Shown: one piece after another, positions 17,055 to 38,961 of the stretch
How the letters are laid out: every line of letters begins with the position of its first letter
Numbering within the stretch: the stretch's first letter is position 1
Assembly: GCA_000004985.1 (NCBI GenBank)
Contig: GG738918.1
Length of the DNA stretch: 64,000 nucleotides
Source: Naegleria gruberi
Taxonomy: Eukaryota
Reading direction: 5' to 3' (one strand)
The notes under the pieces: model-generated
Told to the model about the DNA's origin: nothing
The model's input: the letters and a program-made list of their open reading frames with translations, nothing else
Database searches by the model: none
Program-made: the position numbers and the translations under genes

Positions 17055-19949
17055 TTATTGCTTCTTTGCTCTTTGTTCGAATACTTTGCTGAGTTCATTT
17101 GTGCTTGAGACAGCTTTGACTGGTTTAAAGAGACCTGACTTCTTTTTCTTTTGTTGTTGAATAATTTGTTCTGATGAGGATAAAGCTTGTTTAAGCTTTT
17201 CAATTTCATCAACTAAAACTTGTTTCTTTTGCTTTTGTTTTTCCTTTTCTTCTTGGGTTGCACTCTTTTGAGCTCTCAAAGTATCCAATTCATTTTGAAG
17301 CTCAATAATTCTGTTATTTTGGAGTTCAATTTTCTTATTGGCTGATTGAAGTTTGGATCTTTCACTTTGAATTTGTTGTCTTGAGTGATTTGCTTCTGTT
17401 TGAAGTTTCTCCTTCTCATCTTGAATCTTTTCCAATCTGTTTCTCAATTCGAACAAATCATTTGCCCAGTTTCTTCCCAACTTTTGCTGCTGTTGGTTGG
17501 TTGGAGTGCTTGGTTTGGCGGAGCCTTTCTCCATCTCCATTTGCAATTCCGCTAATTCTTGCTTAAGATTTTCTTTTTGGAGTGTTAATTGCTTCAAGTC
17601 CTTCTCCTTTGATTTGATTTGCTCCTCGTATTCTTCTTTGATTTTTTCATAGGATTCGGTCTTGTCCTCCATTAATTCCTCTAATGCTTTCACATCTTTC
17701 TTTAATTGTTTGATTTCATCTTTGATTTTATCGGTATCTTCCTCAACATCTTGAAGTTCTCCTTCAAGCTCTTCAGTTTTATCCTTCTCAGCATCGAGAT
17801 CATCTTCGGCTCTATCAAGTTTCTTATTAAGATCTTTCTCAATAGTTGCAGAATTTTTCTTTTCTTCTTTAAGCTCTGCCTTTAATTTTTCTATTAACTT
17901 ATCCTTCTTACTTTCAACTGATGCAGCCGAGTCTTTCACCTTTTTCACTTTTGTAGTGTATTCGTCAATTATGAAATCTTCCAAATCTTCATCAATTTCT
18001 GTACTTCCCTTTTTGGTCAACTCTGCCTTCTTAACTTGAGTTTTCAACATGACAATTTCTTCCTCTAGACTAAGATTTTCTTTTTCCAACTTCTTTAATT
18101 TATCTTTCAATTCATCAACTGAGTCTTCAGCAGCATCTAATTGCCCAAGATACTCATTAAGTTCAGTTTCTATATCTACACATTCGTCTTCAAGATTGAA
18201 TACTTCTTTTTCAAGCTTCTTTACCTTCTGAGAAAGTTTCTTGTTTTCTTTTTCTAATCTTGAAATTTCTCTCTTATTAAATTCCTCTACACTTCCTAAT
18301 TCAGCTTCAACGCTTGCGGTTTTTCTTTTCTCATCTTCGTGTTTGCATTCTAAATCAAAAATTCTTTCATTGAGTTGAGTGTTCAACTTTCTGTACATCT
18401 TATTACTCTCTGTCAAACTTTCAATGGATGAAATGGTTTTGGCTCTAGCCTCACTGTCAGAGATATTTTGAGCCATTTCAATCAGCTGGATTGCATTATG
18501 TTTGGCATCTTCCTTTGCATTTTCTAATTCCTTCATCAAATCTAATCTCTTCTTTTCTTCATCAAGGATTTGATCTTTGAGTGCTTTGACTTCCAAAGAG
18601 AGTTCATCAACTTTAAACTTGCATTCATTTCTAATATCTTCTTTTTGTTTTTCTGACGATTCAATTTTTTCATTTACAATGTCAAGCTCATCTTCAAGTT
18701 TTTCATTTGTTTCTTTCAGCTTTTTGATAGAACTCTTAAGGGTAGTATTTTCATTTGTAAGTTCCTTGATGGTTTGTTTGTAAGAAGATGTTTCTTCCTT
18801 ATATTTACATTCCAATTCATCCAACTTGTGAGCCAATTCGGCTTTTGAAAGAGAGTTATCGCCATCTTTGCTTGATTTGAGTATTGCTATTTGTTCCTCA
18901 AGTTTTTTAATGATTTGCATTAATTCTGTTGGGCTTTTGTAAGTGTTTTGTTTTGCTACACACTTGATGTTCTTCATTTTCAATCCGAACTTCAGACTTG
19001 AAACAGATTCTTCTCCACACAAAGGAGTTGGTGAAAGATTACAAATAAGGGTAGCCTTAGAGTTTCCCCCAAGAGTTTCTTTCAAAATTTTTGTTAGCTT
19101 CGAATCTTCAAATGGTATATCAGACTTCTTATCGAGGATGGAATCAACACAAACTCCTAGATTTGATAAAGACAATACAAGATTCTTTTGTTCGTCCTCC
19201 ACTGTTCTCTTTTCACTTCCTGCCATATCAACGAATAACAATTGACCTACAGTCGAAGAACTATCCTTGCTAAGACTTTCAACTCTAATGATGAAGATAG
19301 AATGTGATTGAGCAGGATCTTGATTTGTTCTTGTTGACAGTGAGAGCCTATTATTGTTTCCTATTTTGATTATATCAAGCATTTCATCTTCGGTTGTGAC
19401 ATATTCTTCTGTTAATCTATCAACGTAAACTCCTCTCTTTGGGGAATCAATTATAGTTAAATCTCTCTTTTCCTTATCAAATAAATCATTGATTTTTTCA
19501 TTATAAATTTCGAGGAAGGAACAACCAATCTTATATTCAATATTCTCATCTCCACTTCTAATAATTTCAAACATTTCCTTTGCAGTTCTTGGAATTAATC
19601 CAAATAATTCTTCCTTGTCAAGTGATCCAGTCATTGTATATGTTTTTCCTGCTCCTGTCTGTCCGTATGCCATCATTGTTACATTAAAGCCTTTAATAAC
19701 ATCTTTTACAAGTGGTTTACACACGTCTTCATATAATTCCTCCTGTTTTGTATCGTTCTTAAACACTTTATCAACAATGAAGGAATTATTTCCAATGGCT
19801 TGATTATCAGTTGATACCTTAAAAGTATGGTCTCCTTCAAAATCGTATGTTAATTTGTATGAAGTTTTCTCTTGTTTTTCCTTAGTTGTTATTGGTCTAA
19901 AACGAGCAACAACTCTAACGTTTTGCACTTGCCTCAAATTCGCAGACAT
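17055..19949 (-). CDS. Kinesin-like protein with an N-terminal motor domain and a roughly 600-aa coiled-coil stalk
   Basis: The track start at 19988 is a TTG; the first ATG, at 19949, gives 'MSANLRQVQNVRVVARFRP'. P-loop 'GQTGAGKTYTM', switch II 'VDMAGSEK', 'IPFEDSKLTKILKETLGGNSKATLICNLSP'. Switch I is atypical ('DPAQSHSIF' instead of SSRSH). The remainder is E/K-rich heptad repeats. Confidence 0.9.
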   Translation of the reverse strand: MSANLRQVQNVRVVARFRPITTKEKQEKTSYKLTYDFEGDHTFKVSTDNQAIGNNSFIVDKVFKNDTKQEELYEDVCKPLVKDVIKGFNVTMMAYGQTGAGKTYTMTGSLDKEELFGLIPRTAKEMFEIIRSGDENIEYKIGCSFLEIYNEKINDLFDKEKRDLTIIDSPKRGVYVDRLTEEYVTTEDEMLDIIKIGNNNRLSLSTRTNQDPAQSHSIFIIRVESLSKDSSSTVGQLLFVDMAGSEKRTVEDEQKNLVLSLSNLGVCVDSILDKKSDIPFEDSKLTKILKETLGGNSKATLICNLSPTPLCGEESVSSLKFGLKMKNIKCVAKQNTYKSPTELMQIIKKLEEQIAILKSSKDGDNSLSKAELAHKLDELECKYKEETSSYKQTIKELTNENTTLKSSIKKLKETNEKLEDELDIVNEKIESSEKQKEDIRNECKFKVDELSLEVKALKDQILDEEKKRLDLMKELENAKEDAKHNAIQLIEMAQNISDSEARAKTISSIESLTESNKMYRKLNTQLNERIFDLECKHEDEKRKTASVEAELGSVEEFNKREISRLEKENKKLSQKVKKLEKEVFNLEDECVDIETELNEYLGQLDAAEDSVDELKDKLKKLEKENLSLEEEIVMLKTQVKKAELTKKGSTEIDEDLEDFIIDEYTTKVKKVKDSAASVESKKDKLIEKLKAELKEEKKNSATIEKDLNKKLDRAEDDLDAEKDKTEELEGELQDVEEDTDKIKDEIKQLKKDVKALEELMEDKTESYEKIKEEYEEQIKSKEKDLKQLTLQKENLKQELAELQMEMEKGSAKPSTPTNQQQQKLGRNWANDLFELRNRLEKIQDEKEKLQTEANHSRQQIQSERSKLQSANKKIELQNNRIIELQNELDTLRAQKSATQEEKEKQKQKKQVLVDEIEKLKQALSSSEQIIQQQKKKKSGLFKPVKAVSSTNELSKVFEQRAKKQ

Positions 19950-20299
19950 CCTTCCGATTAGCCTTTGATACAGTACTAAAATCCTCAATGCAACAAAATC
20001 CTCAGTAAATTTTTCGAATGATTTTTTTTAAAGGTGCTGCCCTCAATTGCCGCTGCTTTTGGATACCAACTTCCGATTCTGAAAAGTTGTATTCAAAGGT
20101 CCAAACTCTAGCATTAGTTTCTCAATCAGAATCATCAAGAATTGAAAAAGTTTGGATAATTCAATACGTTGAGAGGAGTGCTCTGAACATTAGTCACCTT
20201 AGTACGGAACTTGGAAATCAGTCTGTGATATTAAAGAAAACATGAAGAATGAACTTGGAAACAACTTGAAAAAATTAGCTACATCTACATCAATTATCT

Positions 20300-21885: not shown

Positions 21886-23403
21886 ATGCCAAAAGAGAAG
21901 GGGAGAGGTAATGGTGTGGAGAGTAAAGTTGCATGTTTGGCCTGTCGTCGTGCTCATAAAAAATGTGATAGAAAATTACCTTCATGTGCTAGATGTTCTT
22001 CAAAGGGATGGTCATGTAATTATGATCAAATAGATCGGAGGTTTAAACCAGTTGAGGTAATGAATGAATTGAATAATGATGTTGGAAATTCAAATGTTGA
22101 GTTTAATCATCAGGATGGAATGAATATTGTTGACAATCAGGTGGTGGAGGTGAATGAAAATTGGATTCAACATTCAATGACGGAGGAAACTATTAGAATA
22201 TATAAGGAGGTTATCTATGTGGGAGTTCCTTGCTTCTCAAATGAAGATTATGCCAACATGTTGAGGATGTCTGTGAAGGAAATGAATGAAACTAGGAAGG
22301 ATATTCTTGCATTGCTATTGTCAATTCAGTGCTTGTGTGAGAATATGTGGGGATTTCTCCCAGCTGCTCAGAGAACTGCTGAAAAATCAAGGGATGTACT
22401 AAGGATTGTTTATGAGGATTTTGGAAATCCGTTTGTTGCTTCTTCATTCCTTAATTTGTCATCGTTTTATTCTGTCATTGGAAATGTAGAGATGGCAAAA
22501 GGATACTTGGCAATAATAGAACATTTTTGCTCAAAACTAGAACAGGATTCTACCAGACACGTATTAATAGAAAAGTATAATTGTAAGGTTGATCCAATTT
22601 CTTTCAAAGCTTTTTCAGCATTAGTTGAGATCAACTGTTCTGATTCATACCCTATACCAGATATTGTTTCCCTGAAAAAGTTATATGGTGCCATTTCAGA
22701 TGTTAGCCAGTTAGTTTACAATTTAGATTCTTCACTTGAAAAGAGGATTGAGGGTATGACGTTATTTGTTGCTATGGCAATTAATGAAACATCAGAAAGA
22801 CCTAAATCAGAACTTTCAACCCATATTCTCGATATATGTCTCAAAATATTTGTTAATGGATTGAATATTGTTAGGGCAATTATTAATGGATCCAAATATT
22901 CAGAACCTAGTTTATTGGACGAGAATACCAAAATAATGGAATATTATGCCTATGAAATTACAAAGTTATGTCAAGATCCAGCGTCAGTGGTAGTGCCACC
23001 ATATGTCACTTCTTTTATAGTCACAGCCACAAAGTTAAATTTTGAAATTTTCAAATCTATTGTTAAGGGTGATAGAAAAAATAATCAAAATACGATTATT
23101 ATGAGAGAAGATGGAAGTATTGAACCTTCTATGGAAACAGTTGACTATCATAGTGTTATGATGATTGAATTGAATACTTTGAAACAATTGAGTAAGAGAT
23201 ATCCGTATGTTCACAAAATATTTGAAGAGGTGAATGATTTTATCATGAATAATGGAAAAGAATCAATGATTAGAAATACTAACAACAACAACAACGACAT
23301 TCAACATTTTATTAATCTGCTATATGAAGAACCTTCAGATATTTACAGTGAAATGAAAAAATTTATAGATAATTTGAAAAAGACAACAACCACTAATCTA
23401 TAA
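21886..23403 (+). CDS. Zn(II)2Cys6 (fungal-type binuclear zinc cluster) transcription factor
   Basis: 'ataaaaaaATG'. N-terminal 'CLACRRAHKKCDRKLPSCARCSSKGWSCNY' fits CX2CX6CX6CX2CX6C exactly. 505 codons, no intron needed. Confidence 0.8.
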   Translation: MPKEKGRGNGVESKVACLACRRAHKKCDRKLPSCARCSSKGWSCNYDQIDRRFKPVEVMNELNNDVGNSNVEFNHQDGMNIVDNQVVEVNENWIQHSMTEETIRIYKEVIYVGVPCFSNEDYANMLRMSVKEMNETRKDILALLLSIQCLCENMWGFLPAAQRTAEKSRDVLRIVYEDFGNPFVASSFLNLSSFYSVIGNVEMAKGYLAIIEHFCSKLEQDSTRHVLIEKYNCKVDPISFKAFSALVEINCSDSYPIPDIVSLKKLYGAISDVSQLVYNLDSSLEKRIEGMTLFVAMAINETSERPKSELSTHILDICLKIFVNGLNIVRAIINGSKYSEPSLLDENTKIMEYYAYEITKLCQDPASVVVPPYVTSFIVTATKLNFEIFKSIVKGDRKNNQNTIIMREDGSIEPSMETVDYHSVMMIELNTLKQLSKRYPYVHKIFEEVNDFIMNNGKESMIRNTNNNNNDIQHFINLLYEEPSDIYSEMKKFIDNLKKTTTTNL

Positions 23404-23516: not shown

Positions 23517-25010
23517 TTATTGCAACAGATTTTGTCTCAATTCTTGGATAGAATCAATATAATACTGAGGATTAGTGACATTCACAATTAATACACCTGA
23601 ATTGTAAAATTCATCACCATCTCCTAACTTTACCATCAGTTCAGCTCTGTACTTATTCAATCCATTACCCTCCCAAATTACTGATCTTGTCCAAATATTT
23701 GAAATGTCCCCCAATGAAATACTGAACACATCAAGAAAAAGTCCTCCTCTTTCCATGATAATTATCCGCCTGTTGGTAAGAATGTAGTGAGCTACTGCTG
23801 GTAATTTAAAACTAAATGCTACAAGCATAAAAATCAACATTCCAATGGGACATAGTGTTATCAACGAAATTGTTTGAAAGACAATCCCTCCAACTAGACC
23901 AATAACTAAACCAGGAACAAATGTTATAAAAGGTATCACAAATAAAAAGATTAACCATTTTGAATATGAGGTCCCAGTAATTGTTGCTACAAAGTTATAA
24001 CTCAACAATTCATATGAAACAATCTCCTCATCGGACTGTAATACAGTTGCAAGTAATTCTCTTTCCTTTTCTCCAACCTTTCCATTAATTTCCACTTGTC
24101 CGTTCACATGTTTAAAGAGAGATTCCTGCTCTGGAGTGTATTCATGTTTTCCACCATTGGCTACATACAATTCCTGTAAAACTACTCTTTTTCTGAAAGA
24201 GTTTACAATTTCTTGATTTTGCCTTAATAGTTCAGCCTCTTCTTTAGAAAGTGCGAATCTCTTCTTCATTACAAACACAGCAATGACAAATCCAATTGCT
24301 AAGCATGGTAAAATGATAATAGAAGTAATAATTGATGCCATATTCGAGGTAAATACTGCATTATCATAATACATTGGAGAAACAAGCTTGAATTGATATT
24401 CCTGATTATCAATCATGAAAACTCTATCTCTACCAAGTGTCAAATTATTGAGAAATGGACTCTTCTCTGTTAAATAATACAATGTTCCACTAGTCCCATT
24501 ATTTGGAAATGATAATCTGAAACATTTCAATGTCATTTCCTCACTCTCTGAATAACAAAAATCATTACATGACACATTTCCATAATAGAAATTCCATGTT
24601 TCATGAGAGTATTTCGAAATTTGATGCCAATAAACACGATGAATTGTAACATTTAGCAATGGAACTGAATATCCATCTTCATATCGAACAATATTTGGCC
24701 GAATCATTACTGAACAGTTATTCATCATGCAATTTCTCATTCCCTTCACTTCATCCACTCCATAAGAATTCATCACATCCCATCGGAGTGTAACAACAAA
24801 TACCAAAGATGCAACACTCAAAATTATCAAAGTTAAAAACAAGTGAAATGATCGATCATATTTTTCTAATCTCTTAATATAGGGAGAGGGTGGAACTTGG
24901 CTTCTTGTAATTAAATTGAGAATTGGGAGTAATCCATTTGGATGTAATAATCGATGGACGATTGGAGAAGAATCTCCGTAGTAGAGATTTTCATACTGAT
25001 GTGTTTCCAT
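23517..25010 (-). CDS. Multi-pass membrane protein with a Cys/N-glycosite-rich ectodomain and a C-terminal TM-hairpin plus PH-like (YdbS/YdbT-type) module
   Basis: 497-codon ORF with an A-run before the ATG at 25010. TM segments 'FHLFLTLIILSVASLVFVVTL', 'IITSIIILPCLAIGFVIAVFVM', 'WLIFLFVIPFITFVPGLVIGLVGGIVF' and 'ITLCPIGMLIFMLVAF'. These are followed by 'HYILTNRRIIIMERGGLFLDVFSISLGDISNIWT'. Confidence 0.6.
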   Translation of the reverse strand: METHQYENLYYGDSSPIVHRLLHPNGLLPILNLITRSQVPPSPYIKRLEKYDRSFHLFLTLIILSVASLVFVVTLRWDVMNSYGVDEVKGMRNCMMNNCSVMIRPNIVRYEDGYSVPLLNVTIHRVYWHQISKYSHETWNFYYGNVSCNDFCYSESEEMTLKCFRLSFPNNGTSGTLYYLTEKSPFLNNLTLGRDRVFMIDNQEYQFKLVSPMYYDNAVFTSNMASIITSIIILPCLAIGFVIAVFVMKKRFALSKEEAELLRQNQEIVNSFRKRVVLQELYVANGGKHEYTPEQESLFKHVNGQVEINGKVGEKERELLATVLQSDEEIVSYELLSYNFVATITGTSYSKWLIFLFVIPFITFVPGLVIGLVGGIVFQTISLITLCPIGMLIFMLVAFSFKLPAVAHYILTNRRIIIMERGGLFLDVFSISLGDISNIWTRSVIWEGNGLNKYRAELMVKLGDGDEFYNSGVLIVNVTNPQYYIDSIQELRQNLLQ

Positions 25011-25397: not shown

Positions 25398-26798
25398 ATG
25401 TTTAAACCACTGAAATATGTTCATCCACTAGCAGGACTTTCGTTCAAACTCTTTCGTTCTTCTCCTTTGAAGAATAAAACCCATAATACTACTACTACTA
25501 CTAATTTGAAGAACAACCTTAATAATACTATTAAACAATTATCACAAGATCTTTATGATCTATTTGATCCTTCTAATATGAAATGTGTTAGAGATTTTGA
25601 AACTTGTGATGAGTTAGAATTTCTATTAAGTAATAAAAGTACAATCTATTTTAATAGTGAAGAATTGGATAATTATAAAACAAGTATAAAATCAGAACAA
25701 GAAAATATTCACAAACAAGAAATATTCAATTCAATTAATTTTACTAATAGGAATCCAAAATGTTTACATGAAGTTGATTATTGGTTTATTGATAATTTGT
25801 TATATTTTAATTATCGTGAATGGTCACATGAATATACTCTTTCTATTTTACCATTTAGTAGATTATTACCAGAAGTTATTGAAATTCTAAAAATAGATGG
25901 TAATATAAATGGAAATATTTTAGATTTTATTGTAAATAAATTACAATTACAAGAAGAAAAAATAATTTTAATTAGTCAAATTAAAGGATTATTACCAAAA
26001 TTATCAACTTTTGATATTGAAGTATTAATTGAATGGATTATTAGAAATTTATTTTTTAAAACAGATATTTCTAAAATTCCACAATTTTTAAAAGAAATTA
26101 AAATTAATAATCAAATAATTAAACAAGAAGATGAAATTAAAGATTATAATTTAATAATTAATGAAGAATTAAAAACATATATATTATCATGTGCAAGTGC
26201 TAGATTAATTGATCATAAATATAAAGAAGCTTATCATGAATGTCTATATTTAGAAAAAAACAATTATGATAAAAATATTATTAAAAGTATTCCTAAATTT
26301 TTAAAAGACAATTTAAAATATCATATTCCAAAAGCGGAAAATAATGATAAAATTATTACTATAAATGAAAGACCTTATAATTTTAGTCAAACTCATAAAA
26401 TGATTAATTTTACAATTAATTTTACAGATGATGAAATAACATTTTTAGATTTTGAACCCATTTATTACATGATGGCAAAAATAATTGATTATTACAATAA
26501 GAATATTAGATCTATTGAATGGCCAACTAATTTGGATAATTTAAATGATGATGAATCTAAAATTGATGCTATTTTTGATGATTTATTTTATTATAAAATT
26601 ACAGTTTCACAATTATTTAGATGGATTGAAAGTATTGAATTACAATTTAGTGAAGGAAAACAAATTTGGTTTCATTTTACAATTGTAATTAATAGTCAAT
26701 TGTTTCCTTTTATTGATATGAGTTATGGAACAATGCAAATGGTATTTTCTAGAGGACATGAAAATATGACTTGTTGTTTTACTGATGTTCAATTTTAA
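25398..26798 (+). CDS. Hypothetical protein (N/I/K-rich, no recognisable domain)
   Basis: 466-codon ORF with 'cttaaaaaATG'. Its length is far beyond chance in AT-rich DNA. Confidence 0.55.
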   Translation: MFKPLKYVHPLAGLSFKLFRSSPLKNKTHNTTTTTNLKNNLNNTIKQLSQDLYDLFDPSNMKCVRDFETCDELEFLLSNKSTIYFNSEELDNYKTSIKSEQENIHKQEIFNSINFTNRNPKCLHEVDYWFIDNLLYFNYREWSHEYTLSILPFSRLLPEVIEILKIDGNINGNILDFIVNKLQLQEEKIILISQIKGLLPKLSTFDIEVLIEWIIRNLFFKTDISKIPQFLKEIKINNQIIKQEDEIKDYNLIINEELKTYILSCASARLIDHKYKEAYHECLYLEKNNYDKNIIKSIPKFLKDNLKYHIPKAENNDKIITINERPYNFSQTHKMINFTINFTDDEITFLDFEPIYYMMAKIIDYYNKNIRSIEWPTNLDNLNDDESKIDAIFDDLFYYKITVSQLFRWIESIELQFSEGKQIWFHFTIVINSQLFPFIDMSYGTMQMVFSRGHENMTCCFTDVQF

Positions 26799-26876: not shown

Positions 26877-28238
26877 ATGGGTGAAGTGATTCATGTACAA
26901 GTTGGAGGGTGTGGCAATCATATTGGTTATCAATTTTATGAAAGAATTGCCAAACATGAACATTCAATTCTTCCCAATGGTGAAAAAAGCCTAACTCGTA
27001 ATCATGAAAATATTTACACTGATATTGATGAAGAAAATTACTATACAAATGTATTCTTTGAAGAGAGTAAGAGTGGTCGATGGTCTCCGAGGGCTGTTTT
27101 AGCAGATTTGGAGCCTTATTCCATAGATCAAATACAACAATTAGAATATGGAAGAATATTTAAGAGCGAATATAATGCAATTTATCAGTATGGTGCTGGA
27201 GGAAATTGGGCAAAAGGGCACTATACGATTGGAGCTGAATGTGTGGATAATGTTATGGAGGTAGTGAGGAAACAAGCTGAAAATTGTGGGAACTTACAAG
27301 GATTTCAATTGATGCATTCGTTGGGAGGAGGATCAGGATCAGGTTGGGGTACTCTGGTGATATCTAAACTGAGAGAGGAGTATCCTGATAAGATTGTTTC
27401 TAGTTGTTCTGTTTTTCCTTCTTTGAAAGCATCATCTACAAATCCTGTTGAGGCCTATAATTGTGTTTTGGCTTTTCACCAATTGATTGAGAATACAGAT
27501 TTCGTATCATGTTTTGATAATGAAGCTCTGATTGAAATACAATCAAAATTGAATCTAACCAATGAAGGTTTTAGTGCAATTAATAGAATAATTGCAAAGG
27601 TTATGTCTGATGTAACCTGTTCATTTCGGTTTCCTTCCCATTTAGGGTATAATTTAAGAAAGCTTGCCACCAATTTGATACCTTTTCCTAGACTCCACTT
27701 TGCAACAATTTCACACACTCCAATTAGTGCTGATAGTAATAATTCCTCAAAGAATATATCAGAACTATTCCAAAATTTGACATCTCCAAATAATGTCATG
27801 TGTGGCTGTGATCCTAGAAGTGGTCGGTATATGGCTGCCATTGCTTTATTCAGAGGCTCTATGACATTGAAAGAAGTGAATGATGTTGCTTCATCTGTTT
27901 CCAATAAGAATTCTTCTAATTGGGTTGATTGGATGCCACCCAATTTAAAATCAAATGTTTGTAAGAAGAAATCAGGTGATTTTGAGTCGGCTACTCTCAT
28001 TGCAAACTCCACATCTATTCGATTCTTGCTCACCAATATTGAAAATCGATTCGATAACTTATTCAAAAGGAAAGCGTATCTTCACAACTTGTGTTATGAA
28101 GGAATGGATGAAATGGAATTTTCAGAGGCACAACATAATCTTAATGATATCATAACTGAATACAAGTGTTACGGAGACGAAATTCTTGACGATTTCGATG
28201 ATAGTAACCTTGATCTTTCTTCTAAGGACTTGATATAA
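26877..28238 (+). CDS. Tubulin-superfamily protein, a highly divergent beta-tubulin-like paralogue
   Basis: 'aaaaaaaaATG'. 'MGEVIHVQVGGCGNHIG', 'GAGGNWAKGHYTIGAE', 'LQGFQLMHSLGGGSGSGWGTLVISKLREEYPDKI', 'FRFPSHLGYNLRKLATNLIPFPRLHF', 'RKAYLHNLCYEGMDEMEFSEAQHNLNDIITEY'. It is collinear with beta-tubulin over its whole length but roughly 40-45% identical by eye. Confidence 0.85.
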   Translation: MGEVIHVQVGGCGNHIGYQFYERIAKHEHSILPNGEKSLTRNHENIYTDIDEENYYTNVFFEESKSGRWSPRAVLADLEPYSIDQIQQLEYGRIFKSEYNAIYQYGAGGNWAKGHYTIGAECVDNVMEVVRKQAENCGNLQGFQLMHSLGGGSGSGWGTLVISKLREEYPDKIVSSCSVFPSLKASSTNPVEAYNCVLAFHQLIENTDFVSCFDNEALIEIQSKLNLTNEGFSAINRIIAKVMSDVTCSFRFPSHLGYNLRKLATNLIPFPRLHFATISHTPISADSNNSSKNISELFQNLTSPNNVMCGCDPRSGRYMAAIALFRGSMTLKEVNDVASSVSNKNSSNWVDWMPPNLKSNVCKKKSGDFESATLIANSTSIRFLLTNIENRFDNLFKRKAYLHNLCYEGMDEMEFSEAQHNLNDIITEYKCYGDEILDDFDDSNLDLSSKDLI

Positions 28239-29831: not shown

Positions 29832-31031
29832 ATGATGAACAAGAGAAACGCTGGCGGAATTGAAAAGCAAGTGGTGTGGAGGAAGAGATTCAAGATCGAG
29901 AAGGAGCAGATTAATAATATTTGCAATTATCTGACCGATGGAAAATTCACTGATATTTCAAATTCTTCAAAACGTAGAACGCAGAAAAAGAAGAAGAGAA
30001 TTGATGAAGAGGAAATAGTTGAAACTAAAAATCCATCATCACCAGGTGGATTAGATGTCTATGAAAACACAAAATACTATGAATCGATAAGTAACTTTGC
30101 TTCACAATGGATAATTTCGCAAGAGGAATTAAATCACTTGGCTGAACAAGTCCAAGCTGAAGACAAGGAGCAACGACTAAAAGATCGCCTTTCTGAGGAG
30201 TATGAAATACAACAACGTCTAAAAGAAAAGGAAGTTAATCATCTTTCCTCTTTACTTCAGTCCTCTAGGAAAACATTATCATCTTTGGCGGAATTGTTAG
30301 AGCAAACAAAACCTACAATGATCAAACCAGAAGTTGATCCATTGCCTCTTCAACCAACAACAGCAACAGCTGTTTCTACACCACCTCCTCGTCAAACAAG
30401 TTCAACTGCTACCAATGCTAATGCTAATAATATTACAACAACAGCGATGGAACAAAGGGAGTTACCTAATAATTCAACAACAACAAATAGTAATATTCCT
30501 TCACCATTCGCTGCTAAACCTCCTCCAATGGCTAATAATCAATCAGCTATGAATACTAATCCTCCTATTATTGGCACTAGTAACATGACAACAAATCATC
30601 AACCACCACTTATTTCACCAGATTCTGCTTCAAATTCTACAACGAATAGTGTTCAACCAACTCAACCACCACCTTCACATCAACAAGGAAGTACAACCCC
30701 ATCCTCCTCTCTAAGTAATCAATCTAGTCTTCAAATCAAAGAAATACCCGACCATTCTCCACCACCTCCATACTATCCACCTTCATCTAGTTTACCATCT
30801 CACAGTCCTCACGTTAATGCATCAAATAGTATGATGATGAATAATTCACAACAAAGGCATTCATATCACAATCATTCTAGGTACCAACAACCTCCTCCAC
30901 CTCCACATCATCCACCTAATATGTGTGCACCTCCAATAGTACCTCCTTATATGCCACCACATCACTATCACAATCCATATCCTCAATATCCATACATTAA
31001 TCATAATGATAGACAAAGAAGAAAGAGGTGA
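29832..31031 (+). CDS. Hypothetical low-complexity protein with an N-terminal coiled coil and a P/Q/S/T/N-rich C-terminal half
   Basis: 399-codon ORF. 'EDKEQRLKDRLSEEYEIQQRLKEKEVNHLSSLLQ' is followed by a proline-rich tail ('PPPPYYPPSS', 'QQPPPPPHHPP'). Confidence 0.55.
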   Translation: MMNKRNAGGIEKQVVWRKRFKIEKEQINNICNYLTDGKFTDISNSSKRRTQKKKKRIDEEEIVETKNPSSPGGLDVYENTKYYESISNFASQWIISQEELNHLAEQVQAEDKEQRLKDRLSEEYEIQQRLKEKEVNHLSSLLQSSRKTLSSLAELLEQTKPTMIKPEVDPLPLQPTTATAVSTPPPRQTSSTATNANANNITTTAMEQRELPNNSTTTNSNIPSPFAAKPPPMANNQSAMNTNPPIIGTSNMTTNHQPPLISPDSASNSTTNSVQPTQPPPSHQQGSTTPSSSLSNQSSLQIKEIPDHSPPPPYYPPSSSLPSHSPHVNASNSMMMNNSQQRHSYHNHSRYQQPPPPPHHPPNMCAPPIVPPYMPPHHYHNPYPQYPYINHNDRQRRKR

Positions 31032-33715: not shown

Positions 33716-35071
33716 TTAATCGTTGAATTGAACAATAATATTAACACCACGATCGGCAATAACTTCAGTATCAGTAGCATAAAGTTCAGTTCCTGTATGG
33801 AATAATTCCTTGACCTTCTTCTTCAAGTTTGGTTCAGTCATTTGTCTGAGAGTTGCAGGTTTAGTCAAATACAAAGTTTGGTCACTAGTCAAATTACGTA
33901 ATGAAGCATTGTTGAATTGAATTGACTTGTCGGTTCTCAAAATATCTCTAAATTCATCCAAAGTAATATCTGATGAACAAGTAATTGTCTTTGAAACACC
34001 AGCAGGACCACATTGCAAACAATCTGGCTTTCTTTCATTCTTATAAGTGAATGTATAAATACCTTCACTTCCGTTAAACATCATGTAATCATCCAAGAAT
34101 GGAGTACAGAAAGTAGCCAATTTGAATGCTTCATTTGTACATGATGAAGCAATAATAGCATTGGTGGAGGCAATAGCAGGAATGATACCCTTGATGACAC
34201 CTTGTGTTAAACGGAATGTAACACCAGCAATACCAAAGTTCTTGGCACGTTCCAAAGACTTTTCATAGATCCATTGAACGTGTCTTGGATTATCACCATC
34301 AACTTGTTCATCATCAGGAATACCTTCCTTTCCTTTACAATTACGCCATTCTTCAATATAACAATATTGAATACAATGTTCAGGAAGACGTGGAGTTGTC
34401 TTTAAAGTACACATTGGATAATTTGTTTCATCAGTAGGGAATAAATCCAAAGTACATTCATAACAAGATGTAACACCTGGCAAGATAACTCTAGATTGTC
34501 CTTTAAAGCCTTCAGTACCACCATCAACCAAGGAAATCATGGAACTCATATCAACTTCAGTCTTTTCATCATCAACATATTGAATCAAAGAGAGGAGAGT
34601 ACTATTGATCCAACGACGAGCTGGAATAGAATCCAAACCAGCAATAATAATTCCAAATGATCTATAGAAATCAACAGACTTTTCTTGGATTGCACAAATG
34701 TGTGCTGTAACTTTAACACCTGGCACTCTTTCATTGACAAATCGAGCAGCAACTTCAGCCTTCATCTTACCAACATCACCATCACGGAACAAAAATTGTC
34801 TATTCAAATTACTTGTACTGATGGTATCCATATCAATGATATCAATATTACGGAAGCCACTCATTGCCAAATTCTTCACCAAATCGCAACCAAGACCACC
34901 AGCTCCAATAATTAAAACTTTGCAAGAATCTTGTAAAAATTGTTTAGTTTCATCACCAGCTTGGAAATCTGCTGGAGCAAATGGACCTGATCTCTTCAAA
35001 ATATAATCAAGATCTTTCCATCTTTCTGCTTCAATTTCAGGAGGGAATGATGTATCTACAACGCTGGCCAT
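33716..35071 (-). CDS. UBA3: NEDD8-activating enzyme E1 catalytic subunit (UBA3/UBE1C)
   Basis: 'CKVLIIGAGGLGCDLVKNLAMSGFRNIDIIDMDTISTSNLNRQFLFR' (ThiF/E1 adenylation fold). Catalytic-Cys region 'YPMCTLKTTPRLPEHCIQY' matches the UBA3 sequence 'PMCTIASMPRLPEHCIEY'. The start at 35071 ('aaaaaaaaATGgcc') is preferred over the upstream in-frame ATG at 35173. Confidence 0.9.
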   Translation of the reverse strand: MASVVDTSFPPEIEAERWKDLDYILKRSGPFAPADFQAGDETKQFLQDSCKVLIIGAGGLGCDLVKNLAMSGFRNIDIIDMDTISTSNLNRQFLFRDGDVGKMKAEVAARFVNERVPGVKVTAHICAIQEKSVDFYRSFGIIIAGLDSIPARRWINSTLLSLIQYVDDEKTEVDMSSMISLVDGGTEGFKGQSRVILPGVTSCYECTLDLFPTDETNYPMCTLKTTPRLPEHCIQYCYIEEWRNCKGKEGIPDDEQVDGDNPRHVQWIYEKSLERAKNFGIAGVTFRLTQGVIKGIIPAIASTNAIIASSCTNEAFKLATFCTPFLDDYMMFNGSEGIYTFTYKNERKPDCLQCGPAGVSKTITCSSDITLDEFRDILRTDKSIQFNNASLRNLTSDQTLYLTKPATLRQMTEPNLKKKVKELFHTGTELYATDTEVIADRGVNIIVQFND

Positions 35072-36444
35072 TTTTTTTCTATGTATTGAATTGATCAAAC
35101 TTGCAGAGAACTTGAGTTTATTTTTAAATCCAAAGTTGCTGCTTTGAAAGGCTTGGGATGAACTCAACAACATTGAGAAATATTGTTGAACACAAGTGAA
35201 ACAATTTACAATGAATGATAGAGAGAGTTGGGGTTTTGAATTTGAATTTGTAATGGTGTGAATTTTTAAAAGAGATGATCAACTTTTGAAGTTATTGCCA
35301 ACAACATATTGTAGTTTTCCAGAAACCATGACATAAATTTTTTCACCTCAACACCGATCATTTTTCCATCTCATCCATGTTGATCGATTAAAATCCATCT
35401 ATTCAATCTGTTTTTTGATCAATCTATCAAACAATCGATCATGATTAATCAACAATTTCAATCATATTGAATAAAGACTTGATGTTATTTGAAAAGGCTC
35501 AATTTTCAACTAATTATCAAAAGATGTTGTTTGATTTCTTGTGATGTTTCAAAATAAAGAACTTTAAAACACAAAAAGTTGTTTTTCCAAGTTGCTTAAA
35601 ATCATGTTAGAAGCCAATCTCCTCCGATGTGGCATTTGAATATAAATTTCTTATAATCCTTTCTGAGCTCAATGACAGAGGGTTGCTCCCTTTTTCCAAG
35701 AATATGTCAAGTGCTCACTCTTGATTTTAATTTGGGATATGGATATTGCAATATTACATAAGAGTGTTGGTTCTTGGTTAATGATTGCTTACACAAGTTT
35801 GGACGTTGTTGCTCCTGAACATGTGGTTTTGTTCAAAGAACACCTTATCAAATTTGCTTTCATTCTCTCCCTTTGTCATTAATTAAGGCAGTGAATACTG
35901 GAAACCTTTTTTCAAGTGTTGTATTTATCATGTCAAGTTCTTGAGAAACTCGATTGATGTAGTAGAAGATCCACTAGTAATTCAGTAAGATACAAATCTA
36001 TCTAAGTTGTAACCCAGCATTTCTTCGAAAATGTCGAATTCATTGTAAAGAAATTAAAACATTCAAACTTAATGAATCGTTCACGATACCACCCCCACTT
36101 GATATGGAATTAAGTAATACCAATAAGGTGATTTTCAAGACACTCTATACTGACATCCAACCAAGGGTTGATTTAAAATGAAAAAAGGAGCAATTTGGAG
36201 AAGCCATTTCCAAGCTTAGTGATATAATTTAATTAAGGGAGAATGAAATCTGTGACTCTAAAAATAATTGAAAAACCAAAAAACAACTCTCAAAAAGGCA
36301 AGAAAAAAATCAAACCTGAACTGGAAGAACAAAAGAAATCATCAAAATCAAAGTCTCAAGCTCAGTTCAATGAGGATTTCGAGATATCTGATGAAAACAT
36401 TGATAGATCGATCGATTGATCGATCAATTAATTGATAAAATTCT

Positions 36445-38961
36445 ATGTTTCATCCATTCAATCGATCATTTTCCATCTCGATCAATCATCGATGGGTAAA
36501 AAAAATCCATCTAAAAATTTATGTCATGGTTTCTCCAAGATCAAAAAAAATGCCAAGATCATCCACTCCAACCAAAAGGAAAACCATTCAACAGCCATTA
36601 ATATTTCAACCCACTTTGAAGAAAACTAAATCATCCGAAACAACGTTGAATTCTCCTATTACTATTAGTGATGATGGTGAGAATGAGGATTTATTGTTAT
36701 CAGCTGATGGAGATCAAGCACATGATGATGATATTGAAATATCAACAGAGACTGTTTCGGATTCATCAAGCAAATATTCAATTATTAGAACACCTATTAA
36801 TGATTCATCGACAGTGGATGAATTGGGATTGGAAAGTGTTGAAGCTCATGAACTTCAACAATATTTCAATGCTGAGAAATATTTAGCTAAAGAAAAAGGT
36901 AAATGTAAAAAGATTTATTGCATAGATAGAGGATCTTCATTTACAAAGGGTAACAAGTTTGATATTTTAGAAAAGAGAGTCAAACCAACTATATTAAAAT
37001 TTGGACATAAGGAAAAGACACAATTTTTACCTTCTCAAACATTTTACAATTTACAAAAAGGTCAAGTGAAGATGGGTAAATTTGAGGTTAGTAATGAATG
37101 GGAAGAATTGGAAAATTTGAAAAAGATATTCATGGTGAGTGAGTTATTGGAAATTGGATTAAAATCTGAGAAGAAGAAACTTAGAGTATCTCACATTATT
37201 TATTTAATGATTAGAGATTTAATATCTCAATTATTAACAACTAAAAAACAAGATTCTAATTATTTGGAAGGTATTGGTGCATGGATATTTACATGTCCAT
37301 CAGGAACAAGTGTATTTACTAAATTAATATTTAGAAATTGTATATTTAAAGCATATAATAGTTTAAACATTAATGAAAATAATCCATTACAAATAGATGA
37401 CATATATGTTATTGAGGAATGTACATTATTGAAATATTTTGCCAACAATCAAGAAAAAACATCTACAATGTTTGTTGATTTGGGTCATTTAACACTTGAT
37501 GTCGTTGTGATGGATTTAATTGATGGTGAATATATTGTAACATTTAAAAATGGTGAATCTAGTGGAATGTCACTCATACATCAATTATTAAAAGATAATG
37601 GATTAGATTCAATTAAGGAAATGGAAAATTTATTTGATAATTATCATGATTCTAATGAATTACCACCATCTTTATTACCTCTTAAAAATCAAATTGATGA
37701 AACATTGAAAACTATTACAAAACCTCTATGTATGATGATATTACAAAAGCAAGTAGATTCTATTCACTTTTCAGGTGCTATTACACGAGTTGCTTATTTT
37801 CAAAGAAAATTACAAGAAAATATTAGTTATGTACGTTTACAAAATATTAAGAATGAGCTACTTCCATATTTAAAAGAAGAATTCAAGAATAGAGATATAC
37901 CTATTATTGAATTTTTATGTGAAACTACAGGTGAAAGTGCTTTACTATCAGGTGCAGAAGAAATGATTAATTGTTCTTTAATGAAAATTTCACAAAATGA
38001 ACTCGATTGTAATGTTCCAATTATATTTAAGGAGAAATCTATTAGTGAACAAGTACTTAGTGAACCCTCAATATCATCAATACCAGAAATGAATGAACAA
38101 ACACTACCAACTACTATTGATTGTTTATTATCATCTATTAGTTATAATGACAGTAATAATATTGAGCAGTATGTACCTGCCATGCTATTTGACCATTGCA
38201 ATAGTGGAAGGGTCGAAAAAAAAATGTTATTGGGAAATGTTTTACTAGACATGAATATTAAACAAGATACTGAAATATTTTTAATCAAGTTTAGTCCACT
38301 CATTGATACTAAATTAATATCAACTATTGATTATGAAAATTTTGAAAAAGTGGGAATTATTGAATTCATTAGATTTACCAATTTAATCATTTGTTTTGAT
38401 TGTAATCACATTAAAACTACTACCAATTTACACTTTTATATGAAGTTGGATTTGGAAGATGATTTCTTATTAGTTAGAATTTATTATACTAAAGGTAAAT
38501 CCTTTTTTAAAACTATTACACGAATTGAAAGAAAAGGAAGAAATGAAAGAATTTCCATTAATGATTCTGCTCAACTAATTTTTAAAACAAAAGAAGATGA
38601 AGTAAGAACATGGTATGGTGTATATTATGATACTTTGAGTATTGTATCCAGTTTTTCAAGTATTTCCATTAAATATGCAGAATTAGAAAACGAAATTGGA
38701 GTTGAAAAAGCAAAGGGATTACATGTTGGTAGCAAGCAGCTATCTATTCCAAGTATTGGATCAAAAGATAAGGAATTTGTAAGAAAACACCTTTCTAAAT
38801 GTTCTGTTTGTCAATGCGAAATTAAGAAGGTGCATGCTTGTATTTCTTATAACAAACTACCAATATTTAGAAAAGTATTTGATGATAATTCCATTAATCT
38901 TGGAAATTGTTGTAGTCCTTGTTATAGAATCTATAATGATTTAAAAAAGGAAGAAAAATAG
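36445..38961 (+). CDS. Hsp70/actin-fold (ASKHA) ATPase-like protein with degenerate nucleotide-binding motifs and a C-terminal Cys cluster
   Basis: 838-codon ORF with alternative ATGs at 36526 and 36550; the last has the A-run context. Collinear Hsp70-like blocks: 'IYCIDRGSSFTKG' (phosphate 1), 'GAWIFTCPSGTSVFTKLIFRNCIFKA', 'IYVIEECTLLKYF', 'MFVDLGHLTLDVVVMDLIDGEYIV' (phosphate 2), 'IHFSGAITRVAYFQRKLQE'. C-terminus: 'CSVCQCEIKKVHAC...NCCSPCYRIY'. Confidence 0.6.
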   Translation: MFHPFNRSFSISINHRWVKKIHLKIYVMVSPRSKKMPRSSTPTKRKTIQQPLIFQPTLKKTKSSETTLNSPITISDDGENEDLLLSADGDQAHDDDIEISTETVSDSSSKYSIIRTPINDSSTVDELGLESVEAHELQQYFNAEKYLAKEKGKCKKIYCIDRGSSFTKGNKFDILEKRVKPTILKFGHKEKTQFLPSQTFYNLQKGQVKMGKFEVSNEWEELENLKKIFMVSELLEIGLKSEKKKLRVSHIIYLMIRDLISQLLTTKKQDSNYLEGIGAWIFTCPSGTSVFTKLIFRNCIFKAYNSLNINENNPLQIDDIYVIEECTLLKYFANNQEKTSTMFVDLGHLTLDVVVMDLIDGEYIVTFKNGESSGMSLIHQLLKDNGLDSIKEMENLFDNYHDSNELPPSLLPLKNQIDETLKTITKPLCMMILQKQVDSIHFSGAITRVAYFQRKLQENISYVRLQNIKNELLPYLKEEFKNRDIPIIEFLCETTGESALLSGAEEMINCSLMKISQNELDCNVPIIFKEKSISEQVLSEPSISSIPEMNEQTLPTTIDCLLSSISYNDSNNIEQYVPAMLFDHCNSGRVEKKMLLGNVLLDMNIKQDTEIFLIKFSPLIDTKLISTIDYENFEKVGIIEFIRFTNLIICFDCNHIKTTTNLHFYMKLDLEDDFLLVRIYYTKGKSFFKTITRIERKGRNERISINDSAQLIFKTKEDEVRTWYGVYYDTLSIVSSFSSISIKYAELENEIGVEKAKGLHVGSKQLSIPSIGSKDKEFVRKHLSKCSVCQCEIKKVHACISYNKLPIFRKVFDDNSINLGNCCSPCYRIYNDLKKEEK

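What the first reader, a model, noticed from the sequence alone, without database searches (positions are those of the whole stretch)
26877..28238. Highly divergent beta-tubulin-like paralogue
The protein is full-length collinear with beta-tubulin, including 'GGGSGSG' for the GGGTGSG GTP loop, 'NWAKGHYT', 'FPRLHF', 'MDEMEF' and 'SNWVDWMPPNLKSNVC'. By eye it is only about 40-45% identical, whereas canonical beta-tubulins are usually more than 75% identical across eukaryotes. The N-terminal loop region (aa 25-75) is rewritten, and the C-terminal tail is short and lacks the typical poly-Glu E-hook. It may be a specialised tubulin, stage- or structure-specific, or a member of an undescribed tubulin subfamily.
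Basis: partly seen in the sequence, partly recalled or inferred. Interest (0 to 1): 0.5.

Follow-up and report, generated by a model that had tools for sequence, protein, structure and literature searches.

The report
Known divergent Naegleria beta-tubulin paralogue
This is a real, intact and very divergent beta-tubulin gene of the amoeba Naegleria gruberi (JGI 44840), already annotated and catalogued among that genome's extra divergent tubulins, and its function is still unknown.

Summary
Window 26877-28238 (+) is an uninterrupted 453-aa ORF with both Pfam tubulin domains. It aligns end to end with beta-tubulin. Identity is 44-49% to canonical beta-tubulins, 45% to Naegleria's mitotic beta-tubulins, 33% to alpha and 32% to gamma.

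The window is Naegleria gruberi scaffold_74:1-64000. The gene is JGI 44840 = XP_002670151.1, annotated "beta-tubulin", with the same coordinates in a published gene table. It is not one of the two mitotic beta-tubulins (JGI 55748, 55900). It appears as a lone long branch in the Velle et al. 2022 tree. It most likely belongs to the five highly divergent "bonus" beta-tubulins described by Fulton (2022) from the 2010 genome paper.

Apart from a 98% identical environmental allele, nothing in about 15 billion proteins is closer than canonical beta-tubulin.

The gene looks functional:
- the ORF is intact in two strains, with dN/dS about 0.29;
- the AlphaFold model is a confident beta-tubulin fold;
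- the mRNA is regulated: induced during heat-shock arrest, held until 40 min after release, and lost after division and during flagellate differentiation.

It has lost residues that are the same in the alpha, beta and gamma references compared (Q11, N99, N247, D249), and its M-loop is rewritten. A standard lattice role is therefore doubtful.

Verdict: already known object, function open, modest interest.

The parts
26877..28238 (+). Single-exon CDS of the divergent beta-tubulin paralogue (453 aa plus stop). It is N. gruberi JGI 44840 = XP_002670151.1 = UniProt D2W0C0.
   Evidence: ORF. Pfam Tubulin and Tubulin_C. Exact sequence found in the protein collection under these accessions. Same coordinates on scaffold_74 in Kennard et al. 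2024 Data S2.
26904..26921 (+). T1 nucleotide-binding loop, aa 10-15. It reads GGCGNH where canonical tubulins have GQCGNQ. Gln11, which is the same in the alpha, beta and gamma references aligned, is replaced by Gly. Gln15 is His here and Gln in the environmental allele.
   Evidence: Alignment and residue table. Allele comparison.
26961..27092 (+). H1-S2 loop, about aa 29-72, a lateral-contact element. It has a 9-residue net insertion and 28% identity to flagellar beta. The structure model has low confidence around aa 41-50.
27183..27224 (+). T3 loop, aa 103-116. It reads GAGGNWAKGHY. Asn99 (bovine numbering), the same in the alpha, beta and gamma references and recalled as a gamma-phosphate contact, is replaced by Gly109.
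27324..27344 (+). T4 tubulin signature, aa 150-156. It reads GGGSGSG instead of GGGTGSG.
27630..27656 (+). T7 loop, aa 252-260. It reads FPSHLGYNL. Asn247 becomes Gly and Asp249 becomes Asn, both the same in the alpha, beta and gamma references. Only 4 of 9 residues match flagellar beta, whereas mitotic beta 55900 matches 9 of 9. The beta-diagnostic Arg-Lys (R261, K262) follows at 27657-27662.
27720..27758 (+). M-loop, aa 282-294, the main lateral contact. Only 1 of 15 aligned positions matches flagellar beta, there is a 2-residue deletion, and the conserved Tyr281 is lost. The model has low confidence here.
28179..28235 (+). C-terminal tail, aa 435-453: EILDDFDDSNLDLSSKDLI. It is Asp-rich, has no poly-Glu run and is predicted disordered.

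Best explanation
The ORF is JGI 44840 (XP_002670151.1). It is a lineage-restricted, highly divergent beta-tubulin paralogue of Naegleria gruberi and most likely one of the genome's five known "bonus" beta-tubulins.

Shown here:
- It folds as a beta-tubulin.
- It keeps the beta-type Arg-Lys after the T7 loop and the short S9-S10 loop.
- It keeps most nucleotide-pocket residues.
- It is under moderate purifying selection.
- It is transcribed in amoebae. Its mRNA rises about 14-fold during the heat-shock cell-cycle arrest, stays up until about 40 min after release, returns to baseline by 80 min, and falls about 10-fold during differentiation to flagellates.

Inferred:
- It still binds guanine nucleotide and pairs with an alpha-tubulin, possibly one of the seven equally divergent alphas.
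- It probably does not act as an ordinary dynamic lattice subunit. The reasons are the loss of two probable gamma-phosphate contacts (Q11G, N99G), two conserved T7 residues (N247G, D249N) and nearly the whole M-loop and H1-S2 lateral interface.
- The best guess is an accessory or modulatory tubulin of the dividing or stressed amoeba. It could cap, seed, sequester or otherwise alter assembly of the mitotic tubulins. It is less likely to be a bulk building block.
For: - Identity of the gene: the exact protein is in the collection as XP_002670151.1 / EFC37407.1 / D2W0C0. The neighbouring UBA3 ORF is 100% identical to the N. gruberi protein. Kennard et al. 2024 Data S2 lists jgi_44840 at scaffold_74 26877-28238 (+) as "putative beta-tubulin".
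- Beta class: PDB best hits. Identity is 48% to beta against 33% to alpha and 32% to gamma. K262 aligns with beta K252, and there is no alpha-type S9-S10 insertion. NJ bootstrap for the beta side is 93%. Foldseek's top 50 PDB hits, by the identities and complexes listed, appear all to be beta-tubulin chains, TM 0.88-0.97. The AF2 model has pLDDT 90 and pTM 0.90.
- Distinct from the mitotic betas: the published qPCR primers are absent from the window and identity is only 45%. The authors flag up_in_mitosis as FALSE.
- Functional constraint: against the 98% allele there are 9 synonymous and 10 non-synonymous differences, dN/dS 0.29, binomial p = 0.008. The only indel is in frame.
- Expression: D series 0, 0.08, 0.00, -1.32, -3.40. 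M series -3.80, 0.50, 0, 0.78, 0.28, -0.11, -0.44, -1.99, -3.73. This differs from hsp70 and HSP101, which decay within 10-30 min of release, and from mitotic alpha-tubulin, which peaks at 20-30 min.
- Degenerate sites: 126 of 176 beta-invariant positions are kept. Q11G, Q15H, N99G, T143S, D177S, N247G and D249N are changed. M-loop identity is 1/15, T7 is 4/9 and H11 is 4/19.
Against: - No protein-level, localisation or biochemical data exist for this gene in anything I could read. The mechanism is inference from sequence.
- Log2 fold changes say nothing about absolute abundance.
- The induction during heat shock could be a stress response unrelated to microtubules.
- dN/dS rests on only 19 differences from one allele.
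- The absence of orthologues in N. fowleri, N. lovaniensis and Willaertia protein sets also fits a young, drifting duplicate.
- Membership of Fulton's set of five "bonus" betas is inferred. I could not read Figure S4B of the 2010 genome paper.
- The interface and nucleotide-contact residue lists come from my recollection of the bovine tubulin structures. I did not measure contacts on coordinates.
Confidence: 0.7

Rival explanations
1. It is a functionless or nearly functionless young duplicate. On this view the gene is a beta-tubulin copy that escaped constraint in the N. gruberi lineage and is drifting. It is transcribed incidentally and is on its way to becoming a pseudogene.
For: Residues that are the same in the alpha, beta and gamma references are lost (Q11, N99, N247, D249). 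No orthologue exists anywhere except a 98% allele. dN/dS of 0.29 is well above what I would expect, from general knowledge, for canonical tubulins. The JGI model name (fgeneshHS_pm) carries no estExt tag, unlike the mitotic and flagellar genes.
Against: The 453-codon ORF is intact in two strains and the only indel is in frame. Non-synonymous changes are significantly depleted (p = 0.008). 72% of beta-invariant positions are kept, and the fold is predicted with pLDDT 90. The mRNA shows large, ordered changes across two time courses, which needs measurable read counts. With identity down to 48%, a reading frame free of selection would be expected to have acquired stops or frameshifts.
Confidence: 0.17
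2. It is a third, genuine lattice-forming mitotic beta-tubulin isotype. On this view it co-polymerises into the amoeba's spindle bundles together with the 55748 and 55900 products.
For: It is expressed in amoebae and not in flagellates. Its mRNA is high from the arrest until about 40 min after release, which overlaps spindle assembly, and it disappears after division. It keeps H12 acidic residues, the EGMDEMEF motif and most pocket residues. The known mitotic tubulins are themselves divergent at lattice interfaces.
Against: The authors' own classification gives up_in_mitosis FALSE. The profile lacks the 20-30 min peak of the mitotic tubulins. It is only 45% identical to the mitotic betas. It has no N. 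fowleri or A. kona partner, whereas both mitotic betas do. The M-loop is 1/15 identical with a 2-residue deletion, and T7 is 4/9 against 9/9 in mitotic beta.
Confidence: 0.1
3. It is a member of another established tubulin family (delta, epsilon, zeta, eta or gamma) that has been misread as beta.
For: Long-branch sequences can be misplaced, and in large trees such sequences scatter.
Against: N. gruberi has separate epsilon (44774), delta (69007), eta (65724) and gamma (56069) genes. Identity is 48% to beta against 32-33% to gamma and alpha. All top PDB sequence hits and, as far as the listing shows, the top fold hits are beta. The beta-type K252 and S9-S10 loop are present. The beta side has 93% bootstrap support.
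Confidence: 0.01

Closest known systems
The five highly divergent "bonus" beta-tubulins of N. gruberi (Fritz-Laylin et al. 2010 genome paper Fig. S4B, as described by Fulton 2022, PMC9081340). They appear as the long-branch leaves Ngru_44840, 44710, 44804 and 53354 plus one more N. gruberi leaf (an 819-nt transcript contig or XP_002675383.1 / JGI 88212) in Velle et al. 2022.
   Same: This is the same object. The gene is JGI 44840, with identical coordinates. It shows the described properties: clearly a tubulin, identity far below 60% to flagellar tubulin, and gaps and insertions.
   Different: The members are not close to each other. This protein is only about 40% identical to XP_002673357.1, probably JGI 44710, and they group with only 52% bootstrap. 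Their expression also differs. 44710 and 44804 are induced in differentiation, whereas 44840 is repressed in differentiation and raised in the heat-shock arrest.
Naegleria mitotic beta-tubulins (N. gruberi JGI 55748 and 55900; Velle et al. 2022, PMC9036621)
   Same: They come from the same organism, are divergent beta-class tubulins, are expressed in amoebae rather than flagellates, and are altered at lattice interfaces.
   Different: Identity to them is 45%. They are 57-58% identical to human beta by the authors' figures, against 44-47% for this protein. Both have N. fowleri and A. kona orthologues and this one has none. They keep MREI, Q11, N99 and an intact T7 loop. Their mRNA peaks about 30 min after release.
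Canonical (flagellar) beta-tubulin, for example N. gruberi JGI 83350 or bovine TUBB2B
   Same: Same fold (TM 0.88-0.97), same domain order and nearly the same length. It keeps the beta-type K252, the short S9-S10 loop, DNEAL, the GGG-x-GSG motif and EGMDEMEF.
   Different: Identity is 47-48%. The N-terminus is MGEV instead of MREI. Q11G, N99G, T143S, D177S, N247G and D249N are changed. The H1-S2 loop has 9 extra residues, the M-loop is rewritten, and there is no Glu-rich tail. It is repressed rather than induced during flagellate differentiation.

Membership tests
Eukaryotic tubulin superfamily | Tubulin/FtsZ GTPase domain followed by the tubulin C-terminal domain | tested here: met
   PF00091 7.3e-52 (aa 3-221) and PF03953 4.7e-26 (aa 271-388), both above the gathering scores. 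AF2 model pLDDT 90. Foldseek hits to tubulin chains with TM 0.88-0.97.
Beta-tubulin class | Closer to beta than to alpha, gamma or other classes | tested here: met
   Identity is 44-49% to nine beta references, 33.5% to human TUBA1A and 31.7% to human TUBG1. The best 60 PDB sequence hits are all beta. NJ bootstrap for the beta side is 93%. Delta, epsilon, zeta and eta sequences were not in my tree.
Beta-tubulin class | Lys at the T7/H8 position where alpha has the catalytic Glu254, and no alpha-specific insertion in the S9-S10 loop | tested here: met
   R261-K262 aligns with beta R251-K252, where alpha has T-E. The S9-S10 loop is beta-length, one residue shorter. The definition of this feature comes from my knowledge of the tubulin structures.
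Beta-tubulin class | Strict tubulin signature GGGTGSG | tested here: not met
   The protein has GGGSGSG (T143S), a conservative change.
Beta-tubulin class | N-terminal MREI tetrapeptide (beta-tubulin autoregulation signal) | tested here: not met
   The N-terminus is MGEV. Flagellar beta and mitotic beta 55900 begin MREI; mitotic beta 55748 begins MTREI, with one extra residue before REI.
Beta-tubulin class | Placement inside the clade of canonical beta-tubulins | tested here: not met
   Canonical plus mitotic betas form a clade that excludes this protein in 476 of 500 NJ bootstraps. In the Velle et al. maximum-likelihood tree, Ngru_44840 is a lone branch of length 0.84-0.96 among other aberrant beta-like sequences.
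Beta-tubulin class | Forms a heterodimer with alpha-tubulin, binds exchangeable GTP and polymerises | not testable with these tools
   Only sequence inference is available. 126 of 176 beta-invariant residues are kept, but Q11, N99, N247, D249 and the M-loop are lost.
Naegleria mitotic beta-tubulins | Orthology to JGI 55748 or 55900, conservation in N. fowleri and A. kona, and an mRNA peak 10-60 min after release | tested here: not met
   Their primers are absent from the window. Identity is 45%. No relative above 52% identity exists other than the allele. up_in_mitosis is FALSE.
N. gruberi "bonus" divergent beta-tubulins | An N. gruberi gene that is clearly beta-like, below about 60% identity to flagellar beta, with gaps and insertions, and neither flagellar nor mitotic | tested here: met
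   Whether 44840 is itself drawn in Fig. S4B of the 2010 paper could not be read. It is a leaf in the 2022 tree.
Delta, epsilon or eta tubulin | Orthology to those families | tested here: not met
   N. gruberi epsilon is 44774, eta is 65724 and delta is 69007, all different genes. Identity to beta is too high for those families. That last point rests on general knowledge and was not computed against them.
Pseudogene | Disrupted frame, or neutral evolution with no expression | tested here: not met
   The frame is intact in two alleles, dN/dS is 0.29 with p = 0.008, and the transcript is regulated. The sample is small, at 19 substitutions.

The most novel reading that the evidence does not exclude
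JGI 44840 is a functional, species-restricted "pseudo-GTPase" beta-tubulin. It would be made when amoebae are arrested before mitosis or heat-stressed. It would pair with an alpha-tubulin but could neither sense the gamma-phosphate nor make normal lateral contacts. It would then act as a regulator of microtubule assembly, for example a cap, seed or sequestering partner. Such a factor could help explain why Naegleria amoebae have no cytoplasmic microtubules and assemble spindle bundles only in a narrow time window.
Probability: 0.15. Interest if true: 0.6.

Novelty: already known. Interest (0 to 1): 0.3.

Why it matters
Naegleria is the organism behind the multi-tubulin hypothesis. Its flagellar and mitotic tubulins are now assigned, but the roughly dozen "bonus" divergent alpha- and beta-tubulins have no known role. 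This analysis adds three things about one of them. It appears to be the only one of the three beta "bonus" genes I could check that is amoeba-expressed rather than differentiation-induced. Its profile is tied to the heat-shock arrest and release. It has lost four residues that are the same in the alpha, beta and gamma references compared, while remaining under selection. If it proved to be a non-polymerising regulatory tubulin, that would be a useful addition to tubulin biology. As it stands, it is an already catalogued gene of unknown function.

Tried and rejected
- Dictyostelid or fungal origin. I suspected this from the AT-richness, a Zn2Cys6 domain and a cyclase. It was rejected when UBA3 matched N. 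gruberi at 100%.
- One of the published mitotic beta-tubulins. The four beta and four alpha qPCR primers of Velle et al. do not occur in the window with up to 3 mismatches, and the published sequences differ.
- Accession search. XP_002670151, EFC37407 and D2W0C0 gave no paper. Searching JGI numbers across the library gave only noise.
- Peptide search in the Velle supplementary alignments. This failed because the alignment is heavily gapped and was cut when stored.
- A 71-sequence NJ tree with many 50%-cluster representatives. It was an unresolved bush with alpha nested inside it, so it was uninformative. I replaced it with a 19-sequence tree.
- Partial hits with 52-62% identity in the representative search. 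These are fragments or chimeras of canonical beta-tubulin, not orthologues.
- A scan of JGI metagenome contigs for relatives found none.
- A search for a co-expressed divergent alpha partner was not possible.
- A tblastn of the protein against the window found no second tubulin copy in the 64 kb.
Full report

Yes. Window 26877..28238 (+) is an uninterrupted ATG-initiated ORF of 453 codons. Pfam finds the tubulin GTPase domain (aa 3-221, 7e-52) and the tubulin C-terminal domain (aa 271-388, 5e-26). A phmmer search of all PDB sequences returns 170 tubulin chains. The best 60 are all beta-tubulin, aligned from residue 1 to about 437, with E about 1e-130.

I computed identities with BLASTP against sequences taken from Data S6 of Velle et al. 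2022:
- 48.4% to N. gruberi flagellar beta-tubulin
- 48.6% to Chlamydomonas beta
- 47.3% to bovine beta-2B
- 46.1% to yeast Tub2
- 43.8% to human TUBB1
- 44-45% to the four Naegleria mitotic beta-tubulins

The canonical references are 68-93% identical to each other. Identity is 33.5% to human alpha-1A and 31.7% to human gamma-1.

Two details of the finding need correcting. The tail is not short: 19 residues follow H12 and the protein is 453 aa. It is Asp-rich (6 D, 1 E) with no poly-Glu run. The "rewritten" aa 25-75 region is the H1-S2 loop with a 9-residue net insertion.

**2. Where does the window come from, and which gene is this?**

- The neighbouring ORF 33716-35173 (-) is the NEDD8-activating enzyme catalytic subunit. 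It is 100% identical to the Naegleria gruberi protein, 88% to N. lovaniensis and 81% to Willaertia.
- An exact-sequence look-up shows the 453-aa protein is deposited as EFC37407.1 / XP_002670151.1 / UniProt D2W0C0, "beta-tubulin [Naegleria gruberi]", on a 222,118-bp scaffold.
- Data S2 of Kennard et al. (bioRxiv 10.1101/2024.01.08.573270) lists [quoted passage not shown]. These are exactly the finding's coordinates, so the window is scaffold_74:1-64000 and the gene is JGI 44840.

**3. What is already known about it?**

Velle et al. [quoted passage not shown] By their figures, flagellar betas are 74-75% and the two mitotic betas (JGI 55748, 55900) 57-58% identical to human beta.

This ORF is neither mitotic gene. 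Their qPCR primers are absent from the window and their sequences differ. In the Velle maximum-likelihood tree, Ngru_44840 is a lone long branch (0.84-0.96 substitutions per site). It sits near the base of beta among other aberrant beta-like sequences, with no N. fowleri or A. kona partner.

Fulton's 2022 review (PMC9081340) describes what the 2010 genome paper found besides the flagellar, mitotic, gamma, delta and epsilon tubulins. [quoted passage not shown] JGI 44840 fits this group. I could not read the 2010 figure itself, so this last step is inference. No paper in the library cites the accession.

**4. Relatives elsewhere**

- The word-indexed search of 5.8 billion cluster representatives and the exhaustive HMMER scan of 1.84 billion 50%-identity representatives find only one close relative. 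It is P0001, 98% identical, on a 1,996-bp ENA metagenome contig.
- Everything else is at most about 52% identical over the full length, which is canonical beta-tubulin level. Partial hits with higher identity are fragments of canonical beta.
- The closest N. gruberi paralogue I recovered is XP_002673357.1, probably JGI 44710. It is only about 40% identical.
- A scan of JGI metagenome contigs found nothing.

On present data the gene is restricted to N. gruberi and its very close relatives. The caveat is that unannotated orthologues in other Naegleria genomes could not be searched.

**5. Family placement**

I built a 19-sequence NJ tree with 436 columns and 500 bootstraps. The protein falls on the beta side of alpha and gamma in 93% of replicates. 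Canonical plus mitotic betas form a clade that excludes it in 95%. Pairing with the other "bonus" beta has only 52% support and may be long-branch attraction.

Beta-diagnostic features are present. Arg-Lys (R261, K262) sits where alpha has Thr-Glu254, and the S9-S10 loop lacks the alpha insertion. N. gruberi's epsilon (44774), eta (65724), delta (69007) and gamma (56069) tubulins are different genes.

**6. Is it functional?**

- *Selection.* Against the environmental allele the CDS has 9 synonymous and 10 non-synonymous differences plus one in-frame codon deletion. This gives dS 0.033, dN 0.0094 and dN/dS 0.29. Non-synonymous changes are significantly depleted (binomial p = 0.008). Constraint is real but, from general knowledge, much weaker than for canonical tubulins.
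- *Structure.* AlphaFold2 with a 60-sequence alignment gives pLDDT 90 and pTM 0.90. All tubulin helices and strands are in order. Confidence is low only at the H1-S2 insertion, the T5 loop, the T7 region, the M-loop and the tail. By the identities and complexes listed, the top 50 Foldseek hits in the PDB appear all to be beta-tubulin chains, with TM 0.88-0.97 and rmsd 1.7-2.5 Å.

**7. Expression (Kennard et al. 2024, Data S2; header)**

| Gene | Series | log2 fold change |
|---|---|---|
| jgi_44840 | Differentiation: 0, 20, 40, 60, 80 min | 0, 0.08, 0.00, -1.32, -3.40 |
| jgi_44840 | Mitotic synchrony: pre-shock, mid-shock, then 0, 10, 20, 30, 40, 60, 80 min after release | -3.80, 0.50, 0, 0.78, 0.28, -0.11, -0.44, -1.99, -3.73 |
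| hsp70 | Mitotic synchrony | -5.7, 2.7, 0, -1.0, -2.6, -3.8, -5.0, -6.0, -6.0 |
| Mitotic alpha-tubulin AKG0016 | Mitotic synchrony | 0.2, 1.5, 0, 1.2, 1.9, 2.0, 1.7, 1.1, 0.5 |
| Skp1 | Mitotic synchrony | -3.4, 0.1, 0, 0.8, 1.4, 1.5, 1.6, 0.3, -1.6 |

The authors flag jgi_44840 as MT-associated but neither "up in mitosis" nor "up in differentiation". HSP101 behaves like hsp70.

The transcript is about 14-fold above the asynchronous baseline during the 40 °C arrest. It stays on a plateau until about 40 min after release and is back at baseline by 80 min. [quoted passage not shown] This decay is slower than the heat-shock genes, and there is no post-release rise like the mitotic tubulins.

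The other two "bonus" betas present in the held part of the table behave differently. 44710 is strongly induced in differentiation (log2FC 6.5) and 44804 transiently (3.6). JGI 44840 is thus an amoeba-phase gene linked to arrest or stress.

**8. Anatomy of the divergence**

Of 176 alignment positions invariant in 13 canonical and mitotic beta-tubulins, 126 are kept and 50 are changed.
- *Kept:* C12, G13, N14, D67, E69, N100, W101, S138, G140-142, G144, S145, G146, E181, D203, N204, E205, N226, R251, K252, the EGMDEMEF motif, and H12 residues E410, D417, E421 and Y422.
- *Changed, nucleotide side:* Q11G, Q15H (Gln in the allele), N99G, T143S, and D177S with a one-residue insertion in T5.
- *Changed, T7 loop:* G244S, Q245H, N247G, A248Y and D249N.
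- *Changed, N-terminus:* R2G, giving MGEV instead of MREI.

Q11, N99, N247 and D249 are the same in the human alpha and gamma sequences and in every beta-tubulin aligned except this protein and its allele.

By region, compared with N. gruberi flagellar beta (mitotic beta 55900 in brackets):
- M-loop 1/15 with a 2-residue deletion (8/15)
- T7 4/9 (9/9)
- H11 4/19 (11/19)
- H1-S2 loop 13/45 with 9 gaps (13/36)
- H2-S3 loop 4/11 (7/11)
- T3 11/14 and the S4-T4-H4 core 23/29, which remain high

Region boundaries and residue roles (T1 and T3 as gamma-phosphate contacts, T7 as the contact to the partner's nucleotide, M-loop and H1-S2 as lateral contacts) come from my knowledge of the bovine tubulin structures. 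I did not measure them on coordinates.

**9. Most likely mechanism**

*Shown:* a beta-class tubulin fold, moderate purifying selection, and regulated amoeba-stage transcription.

*Inferred:* it probably still binds a guanine nucleotide and can pair with an alpha-tubulin, because the base and ribose contacts, T4 and the H8 Arg-Lys are kept. The loss of both probable gamma-phosphate contacts, of the conserved T7 Asn and Asp, and of nearly the whole lateral interface makes ordinary GTP-coupled lattice dynamics unlikely. My best guess is an accessory or modulatory tubulin, acting as a cap, seed, sequestering partner or specialised minor subunit. It would act in amoebae that are arrested before, or entering, mitosis, or that are under heat stress.

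*Rivals:* a drifting duplicate with little function (0.17), a genuine third spindle isotype (0.10), and membership of another tubulin family (0.01).

**10. Novelty and verdict**

The object is already known. It is annotated, included in published trees and expression tables, and fits a described group. What remains open is the function of these "bonus" tubulins. The points added here are lineage restriction, dN/dS, the loss of four residues shared by the alpha, beta and gamma references, and the arrest-linked expression profile that differs from the other bonus betas. These are modest leads rather than discoveries. Interest is 0.3.

Noticed in passing
window 1-64000: The window is Naegleria gruberi NEG-M scaffold_74, positions 1-64000. 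The published gene table gives identical coordinates for jgi_44840. The window is gene-dense and apparently intron-poor, with about 31% GC.
   Followed up: yes
window 17055-19988 (-): A 977-aa kinesin (Pfam Kinesin motor domain, 4e-86) lies about 7 kb from the tubulin gene. I did not check whether it shares the tubulin's expression profile.
   Followed up: no
window 21886-23403 (+): A 505-aa ORF carries a "fungal" Zn(2)-Cys(6) binuclear cluster domain (4.6e-09) in a heterolobosean genome. This at first misled me towards a fungal or dictyostelid origin.
   Followed up: no
window 47206-48867 (-) and 48881-49741 (-): Two adjacent same-strand ORFs (553 and 286 aa) are separated by 13 bp. The 553-aa ORF has a weak dCache_1 match (below the Pfam cut-off) and an adenylate/guanylate cyclase domain. 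They are probably one receptor-type cyclase gene split by a short intron or frameshift.
   Followed up: no
L001 (ENA ERZ929261 contig k127_505828), 57-1415: An environmental allele of the same gene is 98% identical at the protein level. It differs by 10 amino-acid changes and one in-frame codon deletion. It has the canonical Gln15 where the genome strain has His. This shows a close N. gruberi relative is present in that metagenome.
   Followed up: partly
P0274 = XP_002673357.1 (N. gruberi, 339-kb scaffold; probably JGI 44710, scaffold_47:327001-328380): Another "bonus" beta-tubulin. Its annotated N-terminus lacks the T1 GQCGNQ loop altogether, so the gene model may be wrong (the JGI model is about 20 codons longer). 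JGI 44710 mRNA is induced about 90-fold during differentiation, the opposite of 44840.
   Followed up: partly
window 25398-26798 (+), 23517-25010 (-), 29832-31031 (+), 36445-38961 (+), 51298-53400 (-): Several long ORFs (399-838 aa) have no Pfam match. The 466-aa ORF ends only 78 bp upstream of the tubulin start codon.
   Followed up: no
window 41746-43440 (+) and 55355-56959 (+): Two ORFs of similar length (564 and 534 aa) each have a C-terminal RGS domain. They may be paralogues 12 kb apart.
   Followed up: no
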